Positions 44,095-55,849 of a stretch of 64,000 nt of DNA are shown one piece after another. Both the position numbers and the translations under genes were made by a program. The stretch covers positions 1-64,000 of the IMG/VR virus record IMGVR_UViG_3300037440_000397. One strand, written 5' to 3'. Below the pieces are notes generated by a model. That model ran no database searches. It was given only the letters and a program-made list of their open reading frames with translations, and was not told where the DNA came from. Source of the stretch: an uncultured virus (IMG/VR IMGVR_UViG_3300037440_000397). Lineage: Duplodnaviria > Heunggongvirae > Uroviricota > Caudoviricetes. The first letter of the stretch is position 1. The number at the start of each line of letters is the position of its first letter.

Positions 44095-47000
44095 TCACCT
44101 CCCTCCCGGGTGGACGCGACGCGACAGCATCCGCATCACAATCCGTACCGCATCACGCTCGGTCTGCTCCTGCGAGCGGCCCCACGCAACCGTCGGCCGA
44201 CCAGCCGCCACCAGCGCCTGCGGCTCACCCGACGCGACACGGGCCCGCATCTTCGGCACCGGGAACCCCGGCACATTCACCGCCAGCAACCCCACCAGCC
44301 GAAGCTCCCCGCCGATCCGCCGCCAGTCCCCACTGACCTGGCCCGCGGCCTGAAGCTCGTATACCTTCAACGGATCAGCGCCCGGACGGACCGCGCCCGC
44401 GACCCAGATCCCGTGCGCGTCGTTACCCACCGCGACATCGGCGACCGCAGCACCCGTGTTGTCGTAGTGCTCCGCCGCCGGAGACGCACCCATGTGCAGC
44501 GGCGCATGCCCGGTACCGACGGTGATCTGACCGACCGCCACCCGGGACCCGTCGTCGCACTTCACCTCACCCGTCCGGTAGTACGGGTGCGCGTCTTCGT
44601 GCGGCGGCTGCACACACACACCCTCCTGCCCGATGTGGCAGGAACCCCACTGCGCAGCATGCCCGTAGATCCGGCCGTCGTCCGTGATCGTGATCGGTGT
44701 CGGCAGGCTGAGCTTCGGATCAGAGAACCAGGCGGCTTGCGGTTGCCGTACTGCTGCTGAAGCAGACATGGAGCCGCCCATGCCGTAGTCGCACCCGTCT
44801 TCTTCCGCAGCTGACATCAGGCTGCCAGCGGACACGCCAAGGGCTCGAGCGAAACCCGCCAACCGGTCCTCGGGCGGGCAGTTGATGTCTCCGGCGATGA
44901 TCTCATTGACGGTGCCGGTGCTGATTCCAGCCGCGTTCGCCATGTCGGCGATGATGTCGGCCCGGCTCGTGTCCTCATCCATCTTCCGTTCGATGGCGCG
45001 GTTCAGTGCTCCTGCCAGCGAAGAGCCGAATGCGTGACGAGAGTTTCCAGCGAGAGTTCCGGCCCTCATGTTCAGCTCGGGCGGCTCCCGGTCGGCGTCC
45101 CGCAGATGCCCGGCGAGGTGGTTGTAGACGCCTTGGAAGTCGGCCCGCGGGATCGTCGTGCCGCCGCGGCCACCGTTCAGGATGCCGATCCCCGTAGAGC
45201 AGGCCGTCAGGTTCGCCGCCCCCGGGCTGCCGTCCGCGCCGACCTCGTGATGAATGAACCGGGCGGCATCCTTGACGAGTTCACCGTCTTCGATGCGGTC
45301 GTCATCAATCCACGCGTACGCGTTCCGCGCGGTCGCCACCGTCATCGGCGACGGAAGACGCGCCTCGTTGGCCGGGCCGTCCCAGTCGCCTTCGGAGGTT
45401 GCGGTGTCGTGCGTGCCGACCGCGCCAAACTTCTCTGCCACTGCGGCTTCGCCGACCGGCTGCCCGCCGGCCACCACAGCGCCCTCCTCGTCGAGGAGCG
45501 CGACATAGGCTTCGGCGAACGCGGGGATGTCGACGAGGGTGGCGCCGCGGATGCGGCCGCCGTGGAAAATCATCTTCTCCGGCTGCGCGAACAGCATCTC
45601 GAGCAGGTCGCCCTCGTCGCCGTCTTCCATGCCGGCGTTGACGTCGTCGGGCCACACGAACTCGACGTCGGCGTCCGCGATGGAGTCGGCGTCGATGCTG
45701 ACGCCGCGGAGGAACTCGCCCTTCAACTTGTCGTAGGCCCGTTGTCCGTTGTCGTCGGACAGGTCGAGAACCCCGGCGCCCATGATCTTGTTGTCGTCGC
45801 GCCAGATGCGGTCGATGCGGCCGACGTTGACAGCCTTGGTGCGCGCCTCCCCACCGTGGGAGTCTTCGATGTTCCACCGCAGCGGTATCGGGAGGTCGGC
45901 CCAGGTGAGCGCTCCGGGTGCGAATTCGCGGCCGTCGCCGGTGACGATGCCTTCGACGGCGAGGACGCCTTCCCATGAGGGGGTCTCGCCTGTGTAGCCG
46001 ATCCTGCGGACGTCGTCTTCGTCGTCGCGCTGTGGCCGGTTGCCTTCTTCGGCGAGCAGGGTGCGGGCCTGGTCCTCGGCGTCGGTTTCGGTTGCGTGGC
46101 AGCCCATGAGTTCGTCGGTGGCTTCTTTTACGACGGCCCACGGCGTATCGGCACCGCAGTCCGGGTGGTCTTGCACGATGCTGTACGGCACGCTGCCGCC
46201 TCCTTGCTCGTGGTGTGTCGGCGGCATTGTGTCCGCGGAAGCCGCCAAGATCATTCCGGCGGCTGCTGCCTGCTCGTCTCCCTGCGGCCAGACGGTGACC
46301 AACGTGCCCCTGCAGCGGGAGCCGCCGAGGCAACCCGTGTAGCCGCCCGACGGGTAGGCGGCGCGGGCGTCGGGCAGGGTGGTGTAGCGGGTGCCGTCGA
46401 TGTCGCGACATGGGGAACATGAGTTGCGGTCGAGGATCTCGCTGGCCGTGTACTCGGCAGGCGGTGCGACTGCGAGGACGGCCATGCGGCCCTCGTTCTG
46501 CGCCGCCGACATGGCGGCGCCGACCTGCTCCTCAACTGCCGCACCCGACAGGGACGCGAGGTGCTCATCCACCTGCGCCGCAACCTGCTCCGCCGACCCC
46601 GAACCCCACACCCGCATCGCCTGACGGACCGCGGACTGCACCAGCCCCACACCCAGGTAGCGGGCTGTCGTACGGCCGACTTGGCGGAGCCGGTCCCGGA
46701 TCGCCGCGGCGGTCAGCGCCTCATCGTCGAGGGACCATTCGGGAATGTCGACGCCCTGCGCTTCGGCCTCCGCCTGCTGCTGCTCGCCTGCCTCCCGCGC
46801 GTACGCGATCATGCGGGCGATGAGGAGGCGCGCCCCGTCCTCGGTGTCGACGGTCAGTCCGTCGAGCAGGTCCAAGTTGTCAGCCTCCGCCGCGGCTTGG
46901 ATGCTGGCGGTGATCTCGGCGCGCATCGCCTCCTGCACGCTGGCCCACGCCTCGACCGTGCCGTCTACGGCTTCGTGCCAGGCCTTGTCCATCTGCGTGA

Positions 47001-47811
47001 AGTCAGCGCGGGACGCGAGTTCGAGTTCGGTGGGCTGGCGGCGCAACGGACCGGCCGCCGCGGTTCGAGCGGTGGTTCGTGTGCGGCCGGTGACGCGGAC
47101 GGGGACACCGAGTTCGGCAGCGAGTCCTTCGGCGGCCGTGCACATCGCGTCCAAGAGCAAGGCGCCGCCGCGGTTGGTCTCCACCTCGACATGGACGACG
47201 TCCTCGTCCCACCTCGGGGTGAGGACGCGGGCGGAGGCGGTGACGTCGCCGCCGAGGGGGATGTCAGTGTGCTCCCCGGCGAACGCCACGCGGACGCGGT
47301 CGAAGGTGACCGACCCGAGGCGCTCCTCCAACGCGATGATGAGATCCAGCTCGTCGGAGTACGCGGCACAGATGCGCGGCTGCCAGGGCGTGTACTGGTC
47401 GGGAAGGTTCTCCGCGTCGAGGACGTTCGCCACCGAGTAACGGGCGGCGTCGTAGGCGTTCGCCAGTGCAGGTGCTACGGCCGGGCGGCCGTCGCCGCGA
47501 TCGTCGCCGACGGCCCACACCCACGACGGGGAGTCGCCGTCGGAGTTCCAGTGGTTCGCGCCGAAGATCCGCGCCTCGATGGGCTGCCCGATCCAGTTGG
47601 CGTAGTCGGCGACTTGGTCGATGAGAGCGCGCCGCTCTTCGTCGGTGAACACGCTGCCGTCGTCGCCGAGGAAGTACAGCGTGCAGTGCAGATCCTCGGC
47701 AGCCTCGCCGCCCTCGATCGCCAGCCGCGCCGCGTCCTCCGGCGTGGGCATCAGCGCAATCATCGCGCCAGAGGTGTGCGAGCCGTCAGCGGCGGCCGTG
47801 AGCGAACCCAT
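44095..47811 (-). CDS. Head morphogenesis polyprotein: 2H phosphoesterase-like, MuF-like, capsid maturation protease and HTH insert
   Basis: LHCTL; C..C...D G...CLGG.RCRG; EG..TGDGR, GVSID, TLVDIPAF; AGISTGTVNEII. Confidence 0.8.
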   Translation of the reverse strand: MGSLTAAADGSHTSGAMIALMPTPEDAARLAIEGGEAAEDLHCTLYFLGDDGSVFTDEERRALIDQVADYANWIGQPIEARIFGANHWNSDGDSPSWVWAVGDDRGDGRPAVAPALANAYDAARYSVANVLDAENLPDQYTPWQPRICAAYSDELDLIIALEERLGSVTFDRVRVAFAGEHTDIPLGGDVTASARVLTPRWDEDVVHVEVETNRGGALLLDAMCTAAEGLAAELGVPVRVTGRTRTTARTAAAGPLRRQPTELELASRADFTQMDKAWHEAVDGTVEAWASVQEAMRAEITASIQAAAEADNLDLLDGLTVDTEDGARLLIARMIAYAREAGEQQQAEAEAQGVDIPEWSLDDEALTAAAIRDRLRQVGRTTARYLGVGLVQSAVRQAMRVWGSGSAEQVAAQVDEHLASLSGAAVEEQVGAAMSAAQNEGRMAVLAVAPPAEYTASEILDRNSCSPCRDIDGTRYTTLPDARAAYPSGGYTGCLGGSRCRGTLVTVWPQGDEQAAAAGMILAASADTMPPTHHEQGGGSVPYSIVQDHPDCGADTPWAVVKEATDELMGCHATETDAEDQARTLLAEEGNRPQRDDEDDVRRIGYTGETPSWEGVLAVEGIVTGDGREFAPGALTWADLPIPLRWNIEDSHGGEARTKAVNVGRIDRIWRDDNKIMGAGVLDLSDDNGQRAYDKLKGEFLRGVSIDADSIADADVEFVWPDDVNAGMEDGDEGDLLEMLFAQPEKMIFHGGRIRGATLVDIPAFAEAYVALLDEEGAVVAGGQPVGEAAVAEKFGAVGTHDTATSEGDWDGPANEARLPSPMTVATARNAYAWIDDDRIEDGELVKDAARFIHHEVGADGSPGAANLTACSTGIGILNGGRGGTTIPRADFQGVYNHLAGHLRDADREPPELNMRAGTLAGNSRHAFGSSLAGALNRAIERKMDEDTSRADIIADMANAAGISTGTVNEIIAGDINCPPEDRLAGFARALGVSAGSLMSAAEEDGCDYGMGGSMSASAAVRQPQAAWFSDPKLSLPTPITITDDGRIYGHAAQWGSCHIGQEGVCVQPPHEDAHPYYRTGEVKCDDGSRVAVGQITVGTGHAPLHMGASPAAEHYDNTGAAVADVAVGNDAHGIWVAGAVRPGADPLKVYELQAAGQVSGDWRRIGGELRLVGLLAVNVPGFPVPKMRARVASGEPQALVAAGRPTVAWGRSQEQTERDAVRIVMRMLSRRVHPGGR

Positions 47812-49588
47812 TGGAACTCCGGTGGGAGACGGTGGTCAGAAACCCGGTCGTATCCAGATGCGGGGACAGCCGGCCGATCGTGAGCTGCCCGAACGCAGAC
47901 AGTCGCGCCTCGTACACGCCGGACGTGCCTGGTCTGGGCAGAGTCGGGAGCTTGACCGCGGCGTGTGTGAACGGGCAGGAGTAGGCGTGTGTTGAGCACA
48001 GTGCGGGGTGGAGGAGTTCGGGCGGCCGACCGGCGGCGAATCTGACGGCGTGTAGGGCTTTTGCTTGTTGGGCCATGCGTTCGTCGCGGGCGCGTGCTGC
48101 TTCGGCGCGCGCGGCTTCGGCGGGTGGTGGTTCGCTGGGTGTGTCGGGCGGTGTCCGGTCTTCTGGCTGATCCGTCTCCGGCTCGGTGGTCTGGCCGGGG
48201 CGCGCGGCGGCGACGGGTTGGATGGTGACTTGTTCGCCGGTGAGTTCGGTGATGGCGGATGGGGCTCCGGTGGGGAGGGTGTGGATGACGATCTTGAGGG
48301 CTTGTTCCTTCAGCTCGTCGTCGCTGGGTTTGTCGGCTTCGGTGAAGCCGGTTTCGCGGCGGAGTGCGTCGCCGTTGATTTCGAGGCGGTCGTAGAGCTG
48401 GATGGCGTCTTGGCTGCGGTCGGGGCGGAGGGTGAGTTCGGACATGTCGTACCAGACGACCCAGCTCGCCCAGTCTTCGACGCGGGAGGCTTGAAGCCGG
48501 GGCTGGAGGTAGCCGGTGGTGAGGGCTTGGGCGATGAGTTCGGCGTCGGGGGCGACGTTGACTTTCAGGTTGGTTTCGTCACTCAGCCAGCCGTTCCAAT
48601 GGTTCAAATCGGACATGCCGAGCAGCACTTCGGGTGGGATGTTGAGCTGCGAGGCGAGGCGTTTGATGGCGCTGTCGCGCTTCTCGATGATCTTGTCGTC
48701 GATGCGCAGCGTGAAGTCGAGGTGCTGGAACTTCCCGATCAGTTCTTCCGGCACCTTGATCGGGATTGGCACGATGGCTGCCGCTGTCCCTGGCGTACGG
48801 ATCGCCTCAGCAGCGAGCTCGATCCACTCGGCCACGAACGGGTCCGGCGCGTCAGCGAACTCTTCTCGCACCGGGAAGGTGGCCTCGGACGGAATGAACC
48901 ACACGCCAGCGCTGGCAAGTCGGCTGAGGTACTGGCTGATGATGTGCCGGTTCACCAACTCCAGCTCGCGCATGGTGGTGCGGGCCGCGCGGGCGGGGCT
49001 GTCGGCAACATGGTGGTAGCGCTTGTTGGGGCGCCATACCCGGATGGGGGCCATGGAGTCGGGGGCGAGGGGGCGCCAGTTGTAGCCGTCGCGGGGGTTG
49101 TTTTCGTCGATGACTTCGTAGTGGCCGCGTGCTGCGCGTACTTCGTCGATGGACCGGACAGCCCACTTCTCGATGCCGCCCACGTTTTCGACGATGACGT
49201 AGCCCTCACCGGGGACTGCGAGTTGGGTGCCGAGGCCGTTCATGATTTGGGCTTGTCCGGCGACGCCTCCGGCGAAGGTGGTCATCAGCTCGACGGCGGT
49301 GCCTGCTTCGGCGCGTACGGGTTCGTCGGCTCCGGGTTCGAGTTTCGCGGCGTAGAAGCGGATGCGGGAGAGCATGTTGGCTTCCCAGTCGGCGGCGTAT
49401 CGGAATTCGCCGAGGTCTGAGTAGTACTGCCAGGCTTCGTTTTGCCAGGTGTCGGGGGTGCGGATGAGTTCGGTGCGGGGGCTGGTGGTGGGGGTGGCGG
49501 CGGCCGTGAGCGCGGCGGGTTCTGGGCGTGGCGGGGGTGTGGGTGTGGGCATGACGCCACGGCGGGTGAAGGCGTGATACCAGGCCAT
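47786..49588 (-). CDS. Portal protein
   Basis: WQNEAW...GEFRY, RVWRP, ADSP.RA, SRLASAG, LG...NHW. Confidence 0.85.
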   Translation of the reverse strand: MAWYHAFTRRGVMPTPTPPPRPEPAALTAAATPTTSPRTELIRTPDTWQNEAWQYYSDLGEFRYAADWEANMLSRIRFYAAKLEPGADEPVRAEAGTAVELMTTFAGGVAGQAQIMNGLGTQLAVPGEGYVIVENVGGIEKWAVRSIDEVRAARGHYEVIDENNPRDGYNWRPLAPDSMAPIRVWRPNKRYHHVADSPARAARTTMRELELVNRHIISQYLSRLASAGVWFIPSEATFPVREEFADAPDPFVAEWIELAAEAIRTPGTAAAIVPIPIKVPEELIGKFQHLDFTLRIDDKIIEKRDSAIKRLASQLNIPPEVLLGMSDLNHWNGWLSDETNLKVNVAPDAELIAQALTTGYLQPRLQASRVEDWASWVVWYDMSELTLRPDRSQDAIQLYDRLEINGDALRRETGFTEADKPSDDELKEQALKIVIHTLPTGAPSAITELTGEQVTIQPVAAARPGQTTEPETDQPEDRTPPDTPSEPPPAEAARAEAARARDERMAQQAKALHAVRFAAGRPPELLHPALCSTHAYSCPFTHAAVKLPTLPRPGTSGVYEARLSAFGQLTIGRLSPHLDTTGFLTTVSHRSSNGFAHGRR

Positions 49589-49670
49589 GTGCTGCTCCCG
49601 CGTTCCCTGGGGGTGGGTCTGCGGGTGACGGTAGGCACTAGCCGGGGAAGATCATTCCGGGGTGAATGCG

Positions 49671-49769
49671 GAATTGAATTAAGCGGACCGGTAAAACTAA
49701 TTGCCCTTTACTGGTTCGGGTTAATTAATTGCTGCGGCTTGCGCTTCAGGTCCCTGCATCTCTTACACT
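49671..49769 (+). promoter_or_regulatory. AT-rich divergent region with a likely sigma70 promoter for the RAMP operon
   Basis: TTGCGC (49739) and TACACT (49764), 19-bp spacer. Confidence 0.5.
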
Positions 49770-49828
49770 CACGTCACGGTTCGTGGCGCGGATGGCAGCA
49801 GGCACCCACAATTCACCTGGAGACACCC

Positions 49829-50464
49829 ATGGCTGACGCCACGATTGAGATCCACCAGATCGCCGCCGAGACCCTGCTCGTCCCCCTCGTCGGGACCACG
49901 CCGCTGATCGTTCACCGCTTCAGCGAGAAGGCGAAGCGGCAGATGCTCGACAACATGCAGGGCCGCAAGTCCCCGAAGCAGGCGAAGGACCCGCAGGCGG
50001 AGTACGAGGCCGCGTTCTACCGGCTCGGGGACGGCGGCTACGGCTTCCCCTCGCTGGCCTTCAAGGCGGCCACGGTCGGCGGTGCGCGGTTCTACTCGGG
50101 CGTGACGATGACGGCGCTCAAGCAGTTCATGTACCTGCGTGGCGAGGTCGGTGACGACGGGCGTGCGCTGACCCGTATCGAGGGCGAGCCCATCATGCGG
50201 GAGGACGTCGTCACGGTCGGTCGGAACGGCTCGGACCTGCGGTACCGGCCGCAGTTCTCGGAGTGGCGCGCCACGCTGGAAGTCACCTACGTGACGTCCG
50301 CGTTGACGCGTAACTCGGTGCTTTCCCTGATCGATGCCGGGGGTATGGGCGTCGGAGTCGGCGAGTGGCGCCCGGAGAAGGACGGCGACTTCGGTACGTA
50401 CCGTGTGGATCCGGCTCGTGAGATCGAGGTCGTGACGAGTGCGGGAGAGAAGGTGGCGGCATGA
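49829..50464 (+). CDS. Stand-alone Cas7/RAMP-like protein, 211 aa (Vipr-like)
   Basis: N-terminal strand LVGTTPLIVH, GFPSLAFKAA (RAMP PxxxxKG-like), C-terminal G-rich loop GGMGVGVGEWRPEKDGDFGTY; no other cas genes. Confidence 0.75.
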   Translation: MADATIEIHQIAAETLLVPLVGTTPLIVHRFSEKAKRQMLDNMQGRKSPKQAKDPQAEYEAAFYRLGDGGYGFPSLAFKAATVGGARFYSGVTMTALKQFMYLRGEVGDDGRALTRIEGEPIMREDVVTVGRNGSDLRYRPQFSEWRATLEVTYVTSALTRNSVLSLIDAGGMGVGVGEWRPEKDGDFGTYRVDPAREIEVVTSAGEKVAA

Positions 50465-50886
50465 CAGCGGATCTTCGAGGCCAGTTGCAGGCTGTCTATG
50501 ACCAACACTCGGAGCTGACGCCGGATCTGGTGGTGGACGTGGCGCGCGATCCGGAGCACCCGTTGCACTCGCGGTTCGAGTGGGATGACTCGGTGGCGGG
50601 TGAGGCGTGGCGGCGTCAGCAGGCGCACGACTTGATCCGCAAGGTGAAGGTCGTCTACCGCGAGGCGGATGAGTCGGGTCCGGAGAAGTCCGTCCGCGCT
50701 TTTCATGCCGTGCGGTCCGATAAGGGCCATGTCTATGAGCCGGTGGAGAAGGTCGTCGCTGATGACTTCACTCGTCGGCTTCTGCTGAACGACATGGAGC
50801 GGGAGTGGAAGGCATTGCATCAGCGGTATCAGGAGTTCGAGGAGTTCTTGTCGATGGTGCGGCGGGACGTCAGCGACGCGGCCTGA
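50461..50886 (+). CDS. Accessory protein coupled to the RAMP gene
   Basis: ATGA overlap; LTPDLVV..AR...HPLH..FEWDD motif; array starts 4 nt after the stop. Confidence 0.8.
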   Translation: MTADLRGQLQAVYDQHSELTPDLVVDVARDPEHPLHSRFEWDDSVAGEAWRRQQAHDLIRKVKVVYREADESGPEKSVRAFHAVRSDKGHVYEPVEKVVADDFTRRLLLNDMEREWKALHQRYQEFEEFLSMVRRDVSDAA

Positions 50887-50889
50887 TTC

Positions 50890-51834
50890 GGCAGGCTTGG
50901 CAGGTCTTGGCTGGTCACGTCCCAGTCCGGCATCGCGCGGCTAGGTTCGGCAGGCGAGTCATGGCGTGGCTTGGTGGAGCAACGCGGGTTAAGGCGCGGC
51001 GCGGCATGGCAGGCGGGGTCTGGTTGGGCCCGTCCTGGTGAGGCGAGTCGAGGCGCGGCAGGCTTGGCCCGGCACGGTCCGGCGGGGAAGGCATCGCTAG
51101 GCAGGGCCGGGCTTGGCAGGCTCGGCATGGCTAGTAGTGGCCCGTTCGGTCTTGGTAGGGCTCGGCGTGGATCGGCACGGCAGGCTCGGTGCGGCGGGGC
51201 TTGTCTCGGCGGAGTCTGGCATCGCTTGGTGAGGCAGGGCTCGGCAGGCTCGGCGCGGCTGGTCCTGGCCGGGCTTGGGTCGGCAAGACTTGTCTCGGCT
51301 TGGCAGGGCAGGCGTGGTCCGGCACGTCGTGGCACGTCGGAGTGCGGTGCGTTTGGGTAGGGCTCGGCAGGCTCGGCGGGGTCAGGCAGTGCTGGTTGTG
51401 GCTAGTCACGGCTTGGCAACGCGTGGAATGGCAGGCTCGGCAGCGCAGGGCGCGGCACGGCAGAGCGAGGCGCCACGTGGCATGGCACGGCAGGCCAGGC
51501 ATCGCAGGGCACGGTCGGGCAGGGCCGATCGCGGCATGGTTGGGCTCGGCAGTCATGGTGTGGATAGGCGAGGCATCGCCAGGCACGGCACGGCAGGCGC
51601 GGCAGGCGCGGCCAGGTCGGGCGCGGCATGGTCGGCAGGGCAGGCGGGGCATCGCGGGGTCCGGCGTGGCTTAGCAGGGCCCGGCCAGGCGTGGTCAGGC
51701 GTGGCAGGCACGGCACGGCAACGCAAGGCGTGGCTCGTCCTGGCCCGGCGGGGCAACGCAGGGCAGGCGTGGCTGGTTCTGGTGCGGCGTGTCTGGGCGC
51801 AGTGCGGCGGGGCGCGGACTGGCATGGCAGGCGA
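50890..51834 (+). repeat. Non-coding GGCA-(GGY-NN)n array, 17 units, candidate guide-RNA array
   Basis: GGCA delimiters at 50890, 50949, 51008, 51057, 51115, 51179, 51243, 51307, 51366, 51430, 51489, 51548, 51592, 51601, 51639, 51703, 51762, 51826; mostly 11-12 pentamers per unit. Confidence 0.92.
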
Positions 51835-51843
51835 GAGAACACC

Positions 51844-51881
51844 GAGGGCCGTTCGCGTGACGCACACCGCGAACGGCCCTC
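51844..51881. terminator. 14-bp perfect hairpin closing the array
   Basis: GAGGGCCGTTCGCG / CGCGAACGGCCCTC. Confidence 0.8.
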
Positions 51882-51919
51882 AACCTCACCCATCCCTGCA
51901 AGCCAGATGCTACGGGCTG

Positions 51920-52387
51920 CTACGCCCACTCCTGTCCGGCGAGCAACGCGCCCACGGCCCACGTCGCCAACCACACCAGCACCGGCATCGCCAAACCCGC
52001 CACCGCCCACACCCCGCCCGTCACCACAAGCGCGATCCAACCGCTCGCACACCAAGGACACGACAGCAACTCGGCCAACCAGAACGGCGACCACCTGCGC
52101 CGGTGCACGTAACGCTCCAGCACGCCGTCGTTTTCCTGTACGGAACCGAGGGCCGCGTACGCACGCCGCACCCCCAAGGGCATCTCCTGCTCACCCTCAG
52201 GACGACCCAACGGCGACCAACCCTCGTAGGCGTAGTACGCCCCACGCTCAGGCTCCGTCAGCGCCCGCCAGCCACCCGTCAGCCGGTCACGCAGCCACAG
52301 CACCGGCGGAAACGTATCCGCCACCAGCAACCGCGTAAGCCGGTACACCGCGAGCGACATCACGAGCAGCAGCAGCCAAGTCTCCAT
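51920..52387 (-). CDS. DUF1360-like membrane protein
   Basis: YRLTRLLVAD...LLSCPWCASGW. Confidence 0.8.
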   Translation of the reverse strand: METWLLLLVMSLAVYRLTRLLVADTFPPVLWLRDRLTGGWRALTEPERGAYYAYEGWSPLGRPEGEQEMPLGVRRAYAALGSVQENDGVLERYVHRRRWSPFWLAELLSCPWCASGWIALVVTGGVWAVAGLAMPVLVWLATWAVGALLAGQEWA

Positions 52388-52644
52388 CACAGAGCCGCAG
52401 GAGTCGTCTCACCCTGGAGCGACTTATACACCGACACCGTGTACGAGGTACCGCTGTTGTACGAGGACTTGAACGACACGAGCGCGCTATCCAGGTACGT
52501 CAGCAGCTCCTCCATCTCCGCCTCGTTCTCGCCGTTGATGATGGCGCCCTCGATGGAAAGCTTCGCTCCTCCCGTACTGCTGATCAGGTAGTGGACGGTC
52601 AGCGGGTTGTAACCGCTAGTCGGAAACGCCACGAGAACTCCCAT
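52387..52644 (-). CDS. Hypothetical protein
   Basis: TGATG coupling to the next gene. Confidence 0.55.
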   Translation of the reverse strand: MGVLVAFPTSGYNPLTVHYLISSTGGAKLSIEGAIINGENEAEMEELLTYLDSALVSFKSSYNSGTSYTVSVYKSLQGETTPAAL

Positions 52645-53293
52645 TGATCCAGAACTGCTTTTGATGATTCGTCGGCACCCTCGTGTCCACATGCACAGGA
52701 ACCCCCGCGCCCATCAGGCGCCAGCAGAACGACAGGTCCTCACCCACCAGCGTCCCCGTACCGTCGACGATCGGATCAAACCACGCCCCGGCATCGACGC
52801 GTTCCAGCGCCGAACGGTGCACCAGCAGACACGCCGCCCCCGTACCCGCCACACGCACCAGCCCCGAAGGAACTGGCCTCTCCCACTCCGTGAACACCTT
52901 CGCGTCATCCACCCACCCGTGCAGCGTCGGAAACACCCGCGTCGTCAAGCCGCCCATGCCGTCCGGCTCTTCCTCCACCACCCCGTAGCAGAGGGCGCCT
53001 ACCACCGGCCGCTCCACGGGGTCAGCCGACGCGAGCAGACACGACAGAGCATCCGGCCGGAACCCCATGTCCGTGTCCACAAACCACAGCCACTCCCCGC
53101 CCCCAGCGAGGAACTCAGCCACGGCCTGGTTACGGACATGGGCAATCCCGATGGGCCGGTACCGCACCGGCATGACCCCGGAGATGACAGGCTCTTCAGC
53201 CCGCCGGTCGTGGCTCATGGCGAGGAGCAGCGACTGCATGAACGTGTGGGAGACCCAACCGGGATGGACGTAGCTGACGACGACTCCGCTCAT
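52616..53293 (-). CDS. GT-A fold glycosyltransferase
   Basis: RN..V..FL, FVDTD, GAACLL, GEDLSFC. Confidence 0.8.
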   Translation of the reverse strand: MSGVVVSYVHPGWVSHTFMQSLLLAMSHDRRAEEPVISGVMPVRYRPIGIAHVRNQAVAEFLAGGGEWLWFVDTDMGFRPDALSCLLASADPVERPVVGALCYGVVEEEPDGMGGLTTRVFPTLHGWVDDAKVFTEWERPVPSGLVRVAGTGAACLLVHRSALERVDAGAWFDPIVDGTGTLVGEDLSFCWRLMGAGVPVHVDTRVPTNHQKQFWINGSSRGVSD

Positions 53294-53298
53294 GCTGG

Positions 53299-55698
53299 TC
53301 ACCGTACGCGCCCGCCAACAATCTGCTTTCTGGCCAGATCGCCACCCAACGAACCCTGACCACGCGACGCCGTCCCCACCAACTTCAGATGCCACGCGGT
53401 CCACACGCAGTTGTGCACGAGGATTCCGTTCGCATAGAACTCGTGCTCACCCTCGATCGTCAGGTCGTACACGGGCTGCCTTGTTTCGAGCGCGGAGATG
53501 CGCTCCACACGAGTTCGAGCACGTCGCCGGAACCGGCTGATACTTGCTCTGCATGAACTCCCCTCCGCAGATCGGGCAGTTCGCCGGCTTGCGATACCGG
53601 TCAGCGCGGTCAGCAACACGACGCATGCACGCAGGAGAGCAGTACCGCGACTCCTTGAAGCCGCGCGTCTCGTAAGGCCTGTCACATGCTTGGCAGACCT
53701 CCGTGCGGTACTCCTGCTTGGCGTAGACATCCTTGCCGTGCTGTCGATGCCACTCGCGTCCCTCATCGCTGCTGTGCCACTCGGCAGCCATGGGGCGAAT
53801 GCTCGCCAGGTGCTCCAGCCATTCCGGGCTATCGAGGTCCCGTTCGTGTTCGTGGAGCAGGGCGTGCTCCTTGCGGGTGACGCACCGGAGGTTGCTGGAC
53901 TCGTTGTTGAGCGGGTTGAAGTCCACGTGGTGGATGACATGGCCGCGAGGAACTTCGTCAGCGCCGTTCGCAGCCTTCCAGACCTCGACGTGGAGCTGAC
54001 CCATCCTGGGTATGCGCCGGCTGTTCGCGTAGGCAGTGAAGTAGACCCTCGACGAGCGACTCTTCGACAGAGGGAAACGAGTGAACGTGATGCCGTTGAA
54101 AACGACCGACTCAGTCTGTTTGGGCATACGTCAATTCTATCGCCCCAGACCATCTCATCCACTCGAATGAACCCATTTTGTTCGGTCCATACCTTGTGAT
54201 CTGGAGTGGCCGTGAACGCCCCGGCCGTCGTCACGACACGCATCACCTCAGCGCTCGGACGCGTCATGCCAGACCACGTCACACGGCGCCACCCGGCCCG
54301 CGTCCACGCCAAGTCGTCCGTCGTCACCTCCTCAATCGGGATCTGCCCGCGACGGGTAGTGACCAGAGTCCCGGCAACAAGGCACGCGTCCAATCGGTCC
54401 GGTGACCAGCCCGCTTCCGGGTACCAGGTCGCCATCTGGTCCTCCAGCTTCGGGAACTCGCCGGCGTGGTGCCACCTGTTCTGTGCAGTGAGCGCCGCCA
54501 CGGGCTCCGCTCGCACCGCCTTGCCCCTGGTCGCGGTGACCGTGCGGATCGGAATGTCCACGCCGAGCGCGTCGGCCGCCGTGCGCAGCGTCGCGACGGC
54601 CATGTCCCCTCCAAAATTTCGCTCTACGACCAAGTCGTCTGCTTCCCAGTCGATCGCGGCCTGCACCGCGCGCCGGCCCCATCCGTCGGGCGACAACTGG
54701 CAGGACCGGTCGTCGAGGACGTAGCCGTGATGCTGCGGCCGGCCGCCATCCCCAGGAAGTACGAGGCCGGACTTCCCGACCACGACGATGCCCTGCTCCC
54801 CGGCGCCGCCGGACGGGTCGACGCCGACGGTGATTCGTACGAGGTCGGGTACGTCGCCGGGCCGTACGCGCGCTTCGTCGATCATCGTGTGTTGCCAGAG
54901 CGCGTTCTCGTCTTCTTCGATCAGCTCGCCGTACAGTTCCTGACGGCCGAGCTGCGTGCCCGCATACCGTTCCTCGAGGGAGGCTTTGATGTCCTCGGAG
55001 ATGTGCGGGTTGTCGCGGTAACTGGCGTGCGTCAGCATGACGTTCGCGACCGCTCCGGAGTGCAACTGCTTGATGAGCGGCTTCGGCTTCGGCGTGGTCG
55101 AGGCGACCCAGTGCGGGCGCGGGCCGACACGGAGGCCGAACCGCATGTGGTCCCAGGCGTCGTCGAGGTGCCGCCACGCCGCCAACTCCTCCAGCCACGC
55201 GAGGCATCGGTTACCGCCGGACCGTAGGCGGTCGACGTCGTTGGGTCCTTCCGTGCCGAAGATCTTCGCCTCGGATCCGTTGGGCCAGCGGACGATGGTG
55301 CTGCCCTTGACGGTGGCGAGCTTCGCTTCTGGGCTGTGGACGCTCAGCCCGGATGGCCCGGAGAAGCAGGAGGTGACGGCGTCGCCTTGGGTGGGGCCGA
55401 TGATGGCGATCCAGTGCGGGATCGGGCCGGGTAGGCAGGGCGGTCCGTGGACGTGCTGGTGGACGTACGCGGCACACGCGTCCGTCTTGCCCGCCATCCT
55501 GCCGGCGAGCAACAGCCACCCGTAGAAGTCGCCGGGCGGCGGCACCTGGTGGGGAAGCGGAGTCCACCTGGGTTTCGTCAGCGCGTCGTAGAGGCTGCCC
55601 ACGTCCGCAGCCGATCGGATAGCGGCCTCCGCGAATTCGGCGCGCGTGTTCCCCCGCTCCTGCTGGAGTGGGAAGAAGCTTTCCCAGTCGACGCCCAT
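53299..55698 (-). CDS. terL: Terminase large subunit with intein
   Basis: AGRMAGKT, WLEE, VGVDP, SPDRLDA interrupted by an intein. Confidence 0.9.
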   Translation of the reverse strand: MGVDWESFFPLQQERGNTRAEFAEAAIRSAADVGSLYDALTKPRWTPLPHQVPPPGDFYGWLLLAGRMAGKTDACAAYVHQHVHGPPCLPGPIPHWIAIIGPTQGDAVTSCFSGPSGLSVHSPEAKLATVKGSTIVRWPNGSEAKIFGTEGPNDVDRLRSGGNRCLAWLEELAAWRHLDDAWDHMRFGLRVGPRPHWVASTTPKPKPLIKQLHSGAVANVMLTHASYRDNPHISEDIKASLEERYAGTQLGRQELYGELIEEDENALWQHTMIDEARVRPGDVPDLVRITVGVDPSGGAGEQGIVVVGKSGLVLPGDGGRPQHHGYVLDDRSCQLSPDGWGRRAVQAAIDWEADDLVVERNFGGDMAVATLRTAADALGVDIPIRTVTATRGKAVRAEPVAALTAQNRWHHAGEFPKLEDQMATWYPEAGWSPDRLDACLVAGTLVTTRRGQIPIEEVTTDDLAWTRAGWRRVTWSGMTRPSAEVMRVVTTAGAFTATPDHKVWTEQNGFIRVDEMVWGDRIDVCPNRLSRSFSTASRSLVSLCRRVARRGSTSLPTRTAGAYPGWVSSTSRSGRLRTALTKFLAAMSSTTWTSTRSTTSPATSGASPARSTPCSTNTNGTSIARNGWSTWRAFAPWLPSGTAAMRDASGIDSTARMSTPSRSTARRSAKHVTGLTRRAASRSRGTALLRACVVLLTALTGIASRRTARSAEGSSCRASISRFRRRARTRVERISALETRQPVYDLTIEGEHEFYANGILVHNCVWTAWHLKLVGTASRGQGSLGGDLARKQIVGGRVR
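53410..54384 (-). mobile_element. Intein, 325 aa
   Basis: CLVAGTLV...TPDH...VYDLTIEGEHEFYANGILVHN, +1 residue Cys. Confidence 0.92.
53447..54127 (-). CDS. HNH endonuclease in an alternative frame within the intein
   Basis: LHVEVW...IHHVDFNPLNNESSNL...EHALLH plus two zinc fingers. Confidence 0.85.
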   Translation of the reverse strand: MPKQTESVVFNGITFTRFPLSKSRSSRVYFTAYANSRRIPRMGQLHVEVWKAANGADEVPRGHVIHHVDFNPLNNESSNLRCVTRKEHALLHEHERDLDSPEWLEHLASIRPMAAEWHSSDEGREWHRQHGKDVYAKQEYRTEVCQACDRPYETRGFKESRYCSPACMRRVADRADRYRKPANCPICGGEFMQSKYQPVPATCSNSCGAHLRARNKAARVRPDDRG

Positions 55699-55849
55699 GG
55701 TCGGATTGTGGCTGCTGTTCGAGGGTGTGCTGTCCGGAGCGGGGGTTGGTTGTTGTCTCGTACGCTGGCCGTGCGCCAGGGCCTCATGTCCCTCATTGAC
55801 CCGTGGGCGCCCCCGGGAAGAAGCGCAAAGGGGCGCCACTCAGCGGCGG

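What the first reader, a model, noticed from the sequence alone, without database searches (positions are those of the whole stretch)
50890..51834. Two-level array grammar: 5-nt period inside 59/64-nt units reset by a 4-nt GGCA
Seen: the array parses as GGCA + (GGY-like triplet + NN)n. Unit 1 = GGCA ggcTT ggcAG gtcTT ggcTG gtcAC gtcCC agtCC ggcAT cgcGC ggcTA ggtTC. Thirteen of 17 units have 11 or 12 pentamers; the triplet is usually GGC/GGT with variants (GTC, CGC, AGT, GTT, GGA), and the NN strings differ in every unit. Inference: constant scaffold plus unique variable positions is information storage, not a satellite; GGCAGG may mark processing sites.
Basis: seen in the sequence. Interest (0 to 1): 0.9.

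Follow-up and report, generated by a model that had tools for sequence, protein, structure and literature searches.

The report
Phage VIPR guide-RNA array, staggered type
The five-base rhythm is real and is the guide-RNA array of a VIPR system, a CRISPR-like, RNA-guided gene silencer of phages first described in 2026, so this is a new example of a known kind, not a new kind.

Summary
Window 50890-51834 parses into 173 pentamers and 20 tetramers (18 are GGCA) and no hexamers. Twelve of the 20 segments hold 11 or 12 pentamers (59 or 64 nt). Phases 1-3 carry 0.65-0.92 bits and phases 4-5 carry 1.95-1.96 bits.

It is a vrRNA array of a VIPR system (bioRxiv 10.64898/2026.04.26.720920). The gene two places upstream (49829-50464) is a Vipr protein. 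A 44-sequence profile matches the solved SUSP1 Vipr at E 2.8e-42, and its model matches Cas7/Csm3 proteins. A small accessory gene follows, then the array, then a strong hairpin.

The GGCA "reset" fits the "staggered array, 1-nt overlap" layout shown in that preprint's fig. S18 legend, which it did not confirm by RNA sequencing.

Under the published 1-nt-skip rule no guide hits the phage itself. One guide (51434-51488) matches 22 of 22 read bases in an excisionase-like gene of an actinobacterial integrative element, in 6 metagenome contigs. I treat this as a candidate target only, because chance is not excluded.

No RNA data exist. Novelty: new member of a known kind. This scan has met VIPR on other DNA before.

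The parts
49589..49828 (.). Divergent intergenic region between the portal gene (- strand) and vipr (+ strand). It is the presumed promoter region of the VIPR operon.
   Evidence: Read. The sigma-70 consensus scan found no site, so the promoter is inferred only from gene layout.
49829..50464 (+). vipr gene (211 aa): the Cas7-like RAMP protein that binds one GGY/NN repeat per protomer.
   Evidence: phrog_4652, unknown function, E 1.3e-40. Single sequence against PDB 36pp 'SUSP1 Vipr protein': E 0.0013. Profile A1 of 44 sequences: E 2.8e-42 over the full length. AlphaFold model pLDDT 93.2. Foldseek top hits are Csm3/Cmr4/Cas7, with 47 chains at E<=1e-3. The counterparts of SUSP1 RNA-contact residues H17, R138, D177, W178 and R179 are H, R, E, W and R.
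50461..50886 (+). Candidate vap (vipr-accessory protein), 141 aa. It overlaps the vipr stop by 4 nt.
   Evidence: phrog_15946, unknown function, E 6.5e-33. Homologues sit beside vipr in 20 of 81 loci. Model pLDDT 93.1. Residues 1-100 look like a winged helix only weakly (VIA Z 5.5-6.9; Foldseek E>0.28). Residues 102-140 form one long helix.
50890..51834 (+). Staggered vrRNA array: 20 segments opened by a 4-nt word (18 of them GGCA). Twelve full-length guides hold 11-12 GGY/NN repeats, one holds 9, and the rest are shorter pieces.
   Evidence: It starts 3 nt after the vap stop. As RNA it folds no better than shuffles (z -1.15).
51434..51488 (+). Guide with a candidate natural target (NN string TC AG AG GC AC AG GA GC GT AT AC).
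   Evidence: The 1-nt-skip pattern of its last 10 NN gave 10 metagenome hits. Six of them match all 22 read bases, in the last codons of an HTH_17/AlpA-like 71-84 aa gene.
51844..51881 (+). Perfect 14-bp-stem hairpin closing the array, between convergent genes. It is a likely terminator without a U-tail.
   Evidence: Fold of 51830-51895: -33.7 kcal/mol, z -6.27, and 0 of 200 shuffles fold as well. The consensus terminator scan, which requires a T-run, did not list it.

Best explanation
Window 49829-51881 is a complete VIPR (Viral Interference Programmable Repeat) locus of an uncultured high-GC phage: vipr, a vap-like gene, a 945-nt array of guide RNAs and a closing hairpin.

Shown here:
- The protein is a Vipr homologue with a Cas7-like fold.
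- The array has the GGY/NN grammar, with near-maximal entropy at NN only.
- Arrays of this kind accompany vipr genes, on the same strand, in many unrelated phages and prophages.

Taken from the preprints, not tested here:
- The array is transcribed.
- One Vipr protomer binds each pentamer, hides the GGY and presents the NN.
- The NN dinucleotides pair with a DNA strand read as NNx NNx (every third base skipped).
- The resulting filament blocks transcription of a rival mobile element.

Inferred here:
- Each GGCA is the point where one guide ends and the next begins. The last pentamer of a guide reads GGCAG, and its final G is the first G of the next guide. Guides therefore hold 12 or 13 repeats (60 or 65 nt), like the 12-repeat SUSP1 guide.
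- The one-base-short step may itself stop one filament and seed the next, since no 3' tail or pseudoknot lies between guides.
- At least one guide may be aimed at the excisionase-like gene of an integrative element in actinobacteria.
For: Protein:
- The A1 profile hits PDB 36pp 'SUSP1 Vipr protein' at E 2.8e-42, covering chain residues 1-189 of 202. The next hit has E 0.15.
- Invariant in 44 of 44 aligned sequences are G23, R141, W147, G177, R182 and G190 (numbering of the 212-aa translation from 49826). The G-loop reads GVGEWRP against SUSP1 GVGDWRP.
- Foldseek puts Csm3/Cmr4/Cas7 chains on top.

Array:
- Entropy is 0.65-0.92 bits at phases 1-3 and 1.95-1.96 bits at phases 4-5. Position 3 is a pyrimidine in 166 of 173 pentamers. 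This fits the pyrimidine-only pocket described in 10.64898/2026.04.26.720927.

Association, tested both ways:
- A scan of viral contigs for eight exact GGCNN gave at least 139 loci. Of the 81 with 3 kb or more, 66 encode a Vipr homologue.
- A protein-seeded scan of bacterial genomes gave 31 loci. Of these, 28 hold GGY arrays, all on the vipr strand.
- Across 74 distinct vipr loci, 122 of 124 arrays are on the gene's strand and 104 of 124 lie within 600 bp of it.

Stagger:
- In 221 non-redundant arrays there are 459 tetramers against 55 hexamers. Of the tetramers 332 are GGCA, and 260 stand in the context GGCA|GGC. Runs between breaks peak at 9-12 pentamers.
- The closest relative is a Thermoactinospora rubra prophage (Vipr 84% identical). 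It has the same GGCA-punctuated array.

Targets:
- No self-target reaches 80% of NN, as the preprint reports for its own systems.
- Guide 51434-51488 matches 22 of 22 read bases in 6 contigs. These hold 4 distinct gene variants, 52-83% identical to each other by ungapped comparison. The skipped bases vary at 7 of 10 columns and fall on codon position 3.
- In the one context-rich contig the gene sits beside an integrase N-terminus and an XRE regulator.
Against: - No RNA evidence exists: no RNA run holds this phage. Transcription, guide ends and processing at GGCA are therefore untested.
- The preprint says the staggered layout was not among the layouts it confirmed by small-RNA sequencing.
- Only 123 of 173 triplets are canonical GGY. 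GTC (16), CGC (11) and AGT/AGC (7) replace a G that the structure shows is read specifically, so some repeats or whole guides may be decayed.
- Eight of the 20 segments are short (1-9 pentamers).
- Seven guides were scanned as exact 1-nt-skip patterns in viral contigs, and one of them also in metagenome contigs. All of these scans found nothing.
- The pattern of guide 51434-51488 was not found, with up to 2 mismatches, in 401 genomes of the class of the closest prophage host.
- The single target match could be chance. The same scan gave 4 unrelated hits at 20 fixed bases, so about 0.25-0.4 full-length chance matches are expected per scan, and nine scans were run.
- No other guide matches the 1.6-3 kb held around each target.
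- The 1-nt-skip rule was established for type II systems and may not hold for this clade.
- No promoter was found by the consensus scan.
Confidence: 0.9

Rival explanations
1. The array is a decayed pentanucleotide satellite. It arose by slippage and higher-order duplication of a 59/64-nt unit, sits next to the RAMP gene by accident, and has no guide function.
For: Units share some letters beyond GGY. The first pentamer after GGCA is GGCTC in 6 of the 13 guides of 9 or more repeats, and 'GGCAT CGC' recurs. 50 of 173 triplets depart from GGY. Most guides have no detectable target.
Against: Entropy is near maximal only at NN. Arrays go with vipr genes in phages of unrelated hosts and GC contents from 0.41 to 0.73, and are co-oriented with the gene in 122 of 124 cases. 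Minus-one steps outnumber plus-one steps 459 to 55, and 332 of them use the same word GGCA. Slippage does not predict either of these. Array pieces are identical in contigs of three other runs.
Confidence: 0.03
2. The array is mainly a decoy or sponge. Its RNA soaks up or redirects the Vipr proteins of rival phages, or tunes its own, and does not carry 12-13 working guides.
For: 10.64898/2026.10.15.759431 (abstract and outline read) reports satellite-borne stand-alone vrRNAs that redirect a phage's VIPR to decoy sites, and phage-borne orphan vrRNAs. Many triplets here are degenerate. Seven of the 8 guides scanned had no exact target.
Against: The array lies in one operon with its own vipr and vap genes, which is the ordinary layout of working systems. 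The NN strings are all different. A sponge does not need that.
Confidence: 0.05
3. The G-rich strand acts through G-quadruplexes or other nucleic-acid structure (GG every 5 nt), as a DNA or RNA regulatory or packaging signal between portal and terminase.
For: G is 46% and C 27% on the + strand, and GG runs are spaced by 3 nt throughout. The array lies between the portal and terminase genes.
Against: The third position is held as a pyrimidine in 166 of 173 pentamers, which quadruplexes do not require. As RNA the array folds no better than shuffles (z -1.15). In other phages the same arrays lie in early or immunity regions, not near packaging genes. The Vipr association explains the grammar fully.
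Confidence: 0.02

Closest known systems
VIPR systems with 'staggered' vrRNA arrays (bioRxiv 10.64898/2026.04.26.720920, legend of fig. S18; Results and Methods sections 18, 20, 26 and 27 read; supplements closed)
   Same: - A vipr gene plus a small accessory gene plus GGY/NN pentamer repeats.
[quoted passage not shown]
- Phage-borne.
- No self-targeting at 80% or more of NN.
   Different: The preprint's main text names no actinobacterial or mycobacteriophage example (0 occurrences). It says only the ribozyme-interspersed and single-vrRNA layouts were confirmed by sRNA-seq. I could not see which of its seven types uses the stagger or whether this clade is in its tables. Here the junction word is defined: GGCA in 332 of 459 tetramers across 221 arrays.
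Type II VIPR of Escherichia phage SUSP1 (PDB 36pp; 10.64898/2026.04.26.720927, Results read)
   Same: - Homologous Vipr protein (profile E 2.8e-42).
- Conserved thumb arginine and G-loop W-R.
- About 12 repeats per guide.
- GGY/NN code.
   Different: SUSP1 has four separate vrRNAs of about 100 nt, each ending in an invariant tail with a pseudoknot that caps the filament. Here 12-13 guides run head to tail with no tail between them. The D of the G-loop is E. The accessory gene has no detectable sequence relative in the PDB.
Class 1 CRISPR Cas7 backbone with crRNA (type III Csm3/Cmr4, type I Cas7)
   Same: RAMP fold (Foldseek E 2e-5 to 1e-3). Protomers line up along a guide RNA and flip out bases at a fixed period.
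   Different: The period is 5 nt with three bases hidden, not 6 nt with one. There are no CRISPR repeats, spacers or other cas genes in the window, and the guide is read discontinuously.
TRAP-RNA recognition in Bacillus (11 G/UAG triplets with 2-3-nt spacers; recalled, not from a call)
   Same: A triplet plus a 2-nt spacer, repeated 11-12 times, read by a protein oligomer with one subunit per repeat. This was my working analogy before the Vipr match.
   Different: No TRAP-like gene is present. The fixed triplet is GGY. The variable bases carry the information, whereas in TRAP sites they are spacers.

Membership tests
VIPR system | A Vipr protein (minimal RAMP: RRM core, G-loop, thumb) encoded beside the repeats | tested here: met
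   Profile against solved SUSP1 Vipr: E 2.8e-42, full length. Model pLDDT 93.2. Foldseek top hits are Csm3/Cmr4/Cas7.
VIPR system | Residues that hold GGY in SUSP1 Vipr (H17, R138, D177, W178, R179) | tested here: met
   The counterparts are H30, R141, E180, W181 and R182 of the translation from 49826. Across 44 relatives R141 and R182 are invariant, position 180 is D in 24 and E in 18, and position 181 is W, F or Y in 34. The mapping was read off the printed alignments.
VIPR system | vrRNA of 9-16 tandem GGY/NN (YNNGG) repeats with conserved GGY and hypervariable NN | tested here: met
   173 pentamers. Entropy is 0.65-0.92 bits against 1.95-1.96 bits. Twelve guides hold 11-12 repeats, or 12-13 counting the terminal GGCAG.
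VIPR system | Repeats lie in the intergenic DNA flanking vipr, on its strand | tested here: met
   The array starts 3 nt after the vap stop, on the + strand. The same holds for 122 of 124 arrays in 74 other loci and for 28 of 28 array-bearing prophage loci.
VIPR system | A vap accessory gene in the operon | tested here: inconclusive
   A conserved 141-aa gene follows vipr here and in 20 of 81 loci. Its fold match to winged-helix domains is weak (Z 5.5-6.9). I could not compare it with vap1-6 because the preprint's supplements are closed.
VIPR system | vrRNAs are expressed and co-purify with Vipr | not testable with these tools
   No RNA run is listed for this DNA.
VIPR system | Guides find natural targets by the 1-nt-skip rule and do not target their own genome | tested here: inconclusive
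   The best own-genome match is 18 of 24, no better than shuffled guides. One of 8 guides scanned has a 22-of-22 match, to an Xis-like gene. Chance is not excluded.
Type II VIPR (SUSP1 clade) | Each vrRNA ends in an invariant 3' tail with a pseudoknot | tested here: not met
   Guides abut directly. Only the 4-nt word GGCA separates them. The single hairpin lies after the whole array.
Staggered vrRNA array (fig. S18 of the preprint) | Neighbouring vrRNAs overlap by 1 nt, so the register shifts by -1 at each boundary | tested here: met
   There are 20 tetramers and 0 hexamers here, and 459 tetramers against 55 hexamers in 221 arrays. This is met at the level of sequence only. RNA ends are not known.
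CRISPR array | Direct repeats of about 23-50 bp alternating with unique spacers, with cas genes nearby | tested here: not met
   No repeat longer than the pentamer grammar was found. No Rfam match. Of the 8 ORFs around the array scanned against Pfam and PHROGs, none matched a Cas family.

The most novel reading that the evidence does not exclude
The one-base-short GGCA step may itself be the punctuation of the system. With no tail, ribozyme or CRISPR-like repeat between guides, the missing base would break the Vipr filament's register. A single 945-nt transcript would then be parcelled into 12-13-protomer guide complexes, with or without cutting. That would be a way of delimiting guides not yet shown for any RNA-guided system.

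In addition, guide 51434-51488 may silence the excisionase-like gene of a resident integrative element. That would point to a satellite-like parasite of phages in soil actinomycetes, paralleling the E. coli SUSP1-satellite conflict.
Probability: 0.3. Interest if true: 0.6.

Novelty: new member of a known kind. Interest (0 to 1): 0.4.

Why it matters
- It extends VIPR to an uncultured 78.6-kb high-GC phage from soil and sediment.
- The same staggered, GGCA-punctuated layout occurs in isolated phages of Mycobacterium smegmatis (27 records) and Gordonia terrae (5 records). There the genes are annotated 'hypothetical' and the array is sometimes called a protein gene.
- Those lab-ready phage-host pairs would let the untested part of the system be tested directly. 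The open questions are how guides are delimited without a tail, and whether the 1-nt-skip rule holds in this clade.
- The candidate Xis-like target, if real, repeats the logic reported for E. coli: silence the rival's excision machinery by reading only codon positions 1 and 2.

Tried and rejected
- My first working idea was a TRAP-like ring protein titrated by an RNA of 11-12 triplets. I dropped it when the upstream gene matched Vipr.
- Rfam, E<=1, on 49000-53500: no match.
- Megablast of the region against phages: no match.
- No RNA holder is listed for the region.
- Laying contigs of 4 DNA runs gave identical array pieces: X9 455, 160 and 317 nt; X13 520 nt; X14 277 and 151 nt. It also gave diverged vipr pieces. 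No contig spans the array, so unit gain or loss could not be read.
- Target scans with exact 1-nt-skip patterns, viral contigs: guide 51119 (all 12 NN) and the last 10 NN of guides 51643, 51434, 51493, 51707, 51370 and 51183 gave 0 hits each.
- Target scans, metagenome contigs: guide 51643 gave 0 hits. Guide 51434 gave 10 hits, 4 of them in unrelated proteins that do not extend to the 11th NN.
- The 13 window guides against 0.74 Mb of fetched loci and against the own genome, at skips 0-3, did no better than shuffled guides. Skip 3 on the own genome scores 1.0 only because it is the array itself.
- 290 guides from all fetched arrays against all fetched loci showed no excess over shuffles at any skip. 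242 of them against the target loci reached at most 0.77.
- The pattern of guide 51434 with up to 2 mismatches was not found in the 401 genomes searched, nor with up to 3 mismatches in the two genomes holding L143 and L144.
- The Xis-like protein has only a 44%-identical relative in isolated phages (Tsukamurella phage TPA4) and none in plasmids.
- The consensus promoter and terminator scan found nothing.
- The vap-like protein has no Pfam, NCBIfam or PDB sequence match.
- I ran no complex-prediction job, because I make no protein-protein binding claim.

Full report
**The observation**

The region 50890-51834 has a strong 5-nt period. Letter identity at lag 5 is 0.51 against 0.32 expected, with further peaks of 0.50 at lags 59 and 64.

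A parse that allowed words of 3 to 7 nt returned 173 pentamers, 20 tetramers and no hexamers. Eighteen of the tetramers are GGCA. The parse cost was 115, against 288 +/- 5 for 200 shuffles.

Entropy is 0.68, 0.65 and 0.92 bits at the three scaffold positions and 1.96 and 1.95 bits at the two variable ones. The third position is C or T in 166 of 173 pentamers.

Twelve of the 20 GGCA-delimited segments hold 11 or 12 pentamers (six of 59 nt, six of 64 nt).

It is the only 5-nt-periodic place in the 78,573-base genome. The genome is a virus record with one contig.

**Surroundings**

The array lies on the + strand, between a portal gene (47786-49588, -) and an intein-bearing large terminase gene (53299-55839, -).

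Two + strand genes precede it. One is 211 aa (49829-50464, phrog_4652) and the other 141 aa (50461-50886, phrog_15946). Both are listed as of unknown function.

The array begins 3 nt after the second gene. It is closed by a perfect hairpin at 51844-51881 (-33.7 kcal/mol, z -6.3), which faces a convergent DUF1360 gene.

As RNA the array folds no better than shuffles (z -1.15), and Rfam has no match.

**How the identity was found**

- A distant BLAST brought up cluster F mycobacteriophages and Gordonia phages that carry the same kind of array in an intergenic gap.
- A scan of viral contigs for eight exact GGCNN returned at least 139 loci, with GC content from 0.41 to 0.73.
- In low-GC contigs the repeats form discrete, perfect blocks of 12-15 pentamers on both sides of one gene.
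- That gene is a homologue of the 211-aa protein. After profile iteration, 66 of the 81 loci of 3 kb or more encode one, and 20 also encode a homologue of the 141-aa protein.
- The single protein then hit PDB 36pp, 'SUSP1 Vipr protein' (E 0.0013). A 44-sequence profile hit it at E 2.8e-42 over the full length.
- A literature search on that name led to three 2026 preprints on VIPR systems. A fourth preprint recovers VIPR arrays by 5-nt entropy periodicity.

**What VIPR is, from the preprints**

From 10.64898/2026.04.26.720920 I read the whole Results, Methods sections 18, 20, 26 and 27, and the legends of figs S16-S22. I also read the Results of 10.64898/2026.04.26.720927, and section 6 and the outline of 10.64898/2026.10.15.759431.

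- A Vipr protein is a minimal RAMP related to Cas5/6/7. It polymerises on a vrRNA made of 9-16 GGY/NN repeats, one protomer per repeat.
- The GGY bases are buried. The NN bases pair with a DNA strand in which every third base is skipped.
- The complex represses transcription.
- Natural targets are rival phages, prophages and satellites.
- Seven types are described.
- Array layouts include 'staggered arrays with overlapping vrRNAs', whose legend says neighbouring vrRNAs share 1 nt. The text says that the ribozyme-interspersed and single-vrRNA layouts were the ones confirmed by sRNA-seq.

**Membership tests**

- *Fold.* The model of the 211-aa protein (pLDDT 93.2) matches Csm3, Cmr4 and Cas7 chains best, with 47 chains at E<=1e-3.
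- *RNA-contact residues.* SUSP1 H17, R138, D177, W178 and R179 correspond here to H, R, E, W and R. The thumb arginine and the G-loop arginine are invariant in 44 of 44 relatives.
- *Reverse test.* Starting from the protein, 31 loci were found in bacterial genomes. Of these, 28 carry GGY-pentamer arrays, all on the vipr strand.
- *Orientation.* Across 74 distinct vipr loci from the earlier scans, 122 of 124 arrays are co-oriented with the gene.
- *Accessory gene.* The 141-aa protein models confidently (pLDDT 93.1) as a roughly 100-residue domain followed by a long helix. The domain resembles winged helices only weakly (VIA Z 5.5-6.9; Foldseek E above 0.28). I therefore call it a candidate vap and no more.

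**The GGCA 'reset'**

After the last pentamer of a unit, the next five bases read GGCAG in the old register. The final G is also the first G of the next unit. This is the 1-nt overlap of the preprint's staggered arrays.

Guides here would thus hold 12 or 13 repeats (60 or 65 nt), close to the 12-repeat SUSP1 guide.

The stagger is general. In 221 non-redundant arrays from 153 loci there are 7,496 pentamers, 459 tetramers and only 55 hexamers. Of the tetramers 332 are GGCA, and 260 stand as GGCA|GGC. Runs between breaks peak at 9-12 pentamers.

The closest relative is a prophage of Thermoactinospora rubra, with a Vipr 84% identical. It has a six-unit GGCA-punctuated array upstream of vipr and single guides on either side of vap.

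Whether RNA is cut at these points is not known. No tail or pseudoknot lies between guides, so this locus is not of the SUSP1 (type II) kind.

**Targets**

- *Self-targeting.* By the 1-nt-skip rule no guide matches its own genome at 80% or more. The best match is 18 of 24, no better than shuffled guides.
- *Exact scans.* Only exact pattern scans of public collections were possible. Seven guides gave nothing in viral contigs, and one of them also gave nothing in metagenome contigs.
- *The one hit.* The last ten NN of guide 51434-51488 gave ten metagenome hits.
  - Six come from contigs of GC 0.66-0.69, and they also match the eleventh NN, giving 22 of 22 read bases.
  - These six lie in the last codons (peptide VVITASLVALLE) of a 71-84-aa HTH_17/AlpA-like gene, Pfam E 3e-6 to 3e-4.
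  - They represent four gene variants, 52-83% identical by ungapped comparison. The skipped bases vary at 7 of 10 columns and fall on codon position 3.
  - In one contig the gene follows an XRE regulator and lies near the N-terminus of a tyrosine integrase, with a DUF2742 gene downstream.
- *Parallel.* This resembles the reported targeting of a satellite's excision recombinase by SUSP1 (10.64898/2026.10.15.759431, section 6).
- *Caution.* The other four hits are unrelated proteins carrying the same hydrophobic peptide. They set an empirical background of about 0.25-0.4 full-length chance matches per scan, and nine scans were run.
  - No second guide hits the 1.6-3 kb held around each target.
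  - The pattern was not found in the 401 genomes searched.
  - I therefore report a candidate target, not a finding.

**Limits**

- No RNA run holds this phage.
- Contigs of four other DNA runs show identical array pieces but none spans the array.
- The preprints' supplementary tables are closed. I cannot say which VIPR type this is, or whether this clade, including the mycobacteriophages, is already listed there.
- The main texts of the two preprints I searched for it (10.64898/2026.04.26.720920 and 10.64898/2026.10.15.759431) do not mention actinobacteria or mycobacteriophages.

**Verdict**

The element is a new member of a known kind. Earlier agents of this scan reached the same family on other genomes.

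Noticed in passing
L001 2986-3237 (Mycobacterium phage Mattes), L002 3002-3347 (Donkeykong), L003 3647-3942 (Gordonia phage UmaThurman): Isolated actinophages carry the same vipr + vap + GGCA-staggered array module. 34 phage records encode a Vipr relative (27 Mycobacterium, 5 Gordonia, 1 cyanophage, 1 Pseudomonas), and all 25 rows shown are annotated 'hypothetical protein'. In Donkeykong (gene 48) and UmaThurman (gene 40) the array itself is annotated as a protein gene. In cluster F phages it sits in the early region after the repressor, cro-like and antirepressor genes.
   Followed up: partly
window 53299-55839 (-), with 53447-54127 (-): The large terminase gene carries an intein (Intein_splicing and Hint_2 hits). 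Inside the intein stretch, in another frame of the same strand, lies a 226-aa ORF with an HNH_3 endonuclease domain (E 1.2e-12). Over that part the terminase frame stays open but reads as Arg/Ser/Thr-rich low-complexity sequence. The true reading of this region is unclear.
   Followed up: partly
window 44095-47811 (-): A 1,238-aa ORF combines an RNA-ligase-like N-terminus (phrog_2659), an HTH, and a C-terminal part matching families labelled portal, head maturation protease and virion structural protein.
   Followed up: no
L016 1313-2035, L028 431-1141, L049 3001-3804: In low-GC viral contigs (GC 0.41-0.53) the vrRNAs are discrete, perfect blocks of 12-15 GGCNN. They sit directly upstream of the ribosome-binding site of the next gene. 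In two of the three contigs (L016, L049) they flank vipr on both sides. In L049 each block ends in a short hairpin-like tail. This layout differs from the staggered one.
   Followed up: no
window 50890-51834: There are regularities beyond GGY/NN. The first pentamer after GGCA is GGCTC in 6 of the 13 guides of 9 or more repeats. CGC triplets (11 in all) always follow a pentamer ending in A plus A, T or G, as in 'GGCAT CGC' and 'GGCAA CGC'. Their meaning is unknown. They could be a 5' handle, shared ancestry of units, or tolerated degeneracy.
   Followed up: no
L181 1-3029 (metagenome contig, 20.8 kb): The candidate target element encodes a tyrosine-integrase N-terminus, an XRE regulator, the Xis-like HTH_17 protein, a 245-aa protein without a family match, and a DUF2742 protein. 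The nearest relative of the Xis-like protein among isolated phages is in Tsukamurella phage TPA4, at 44% identity.
   Followed up: partly
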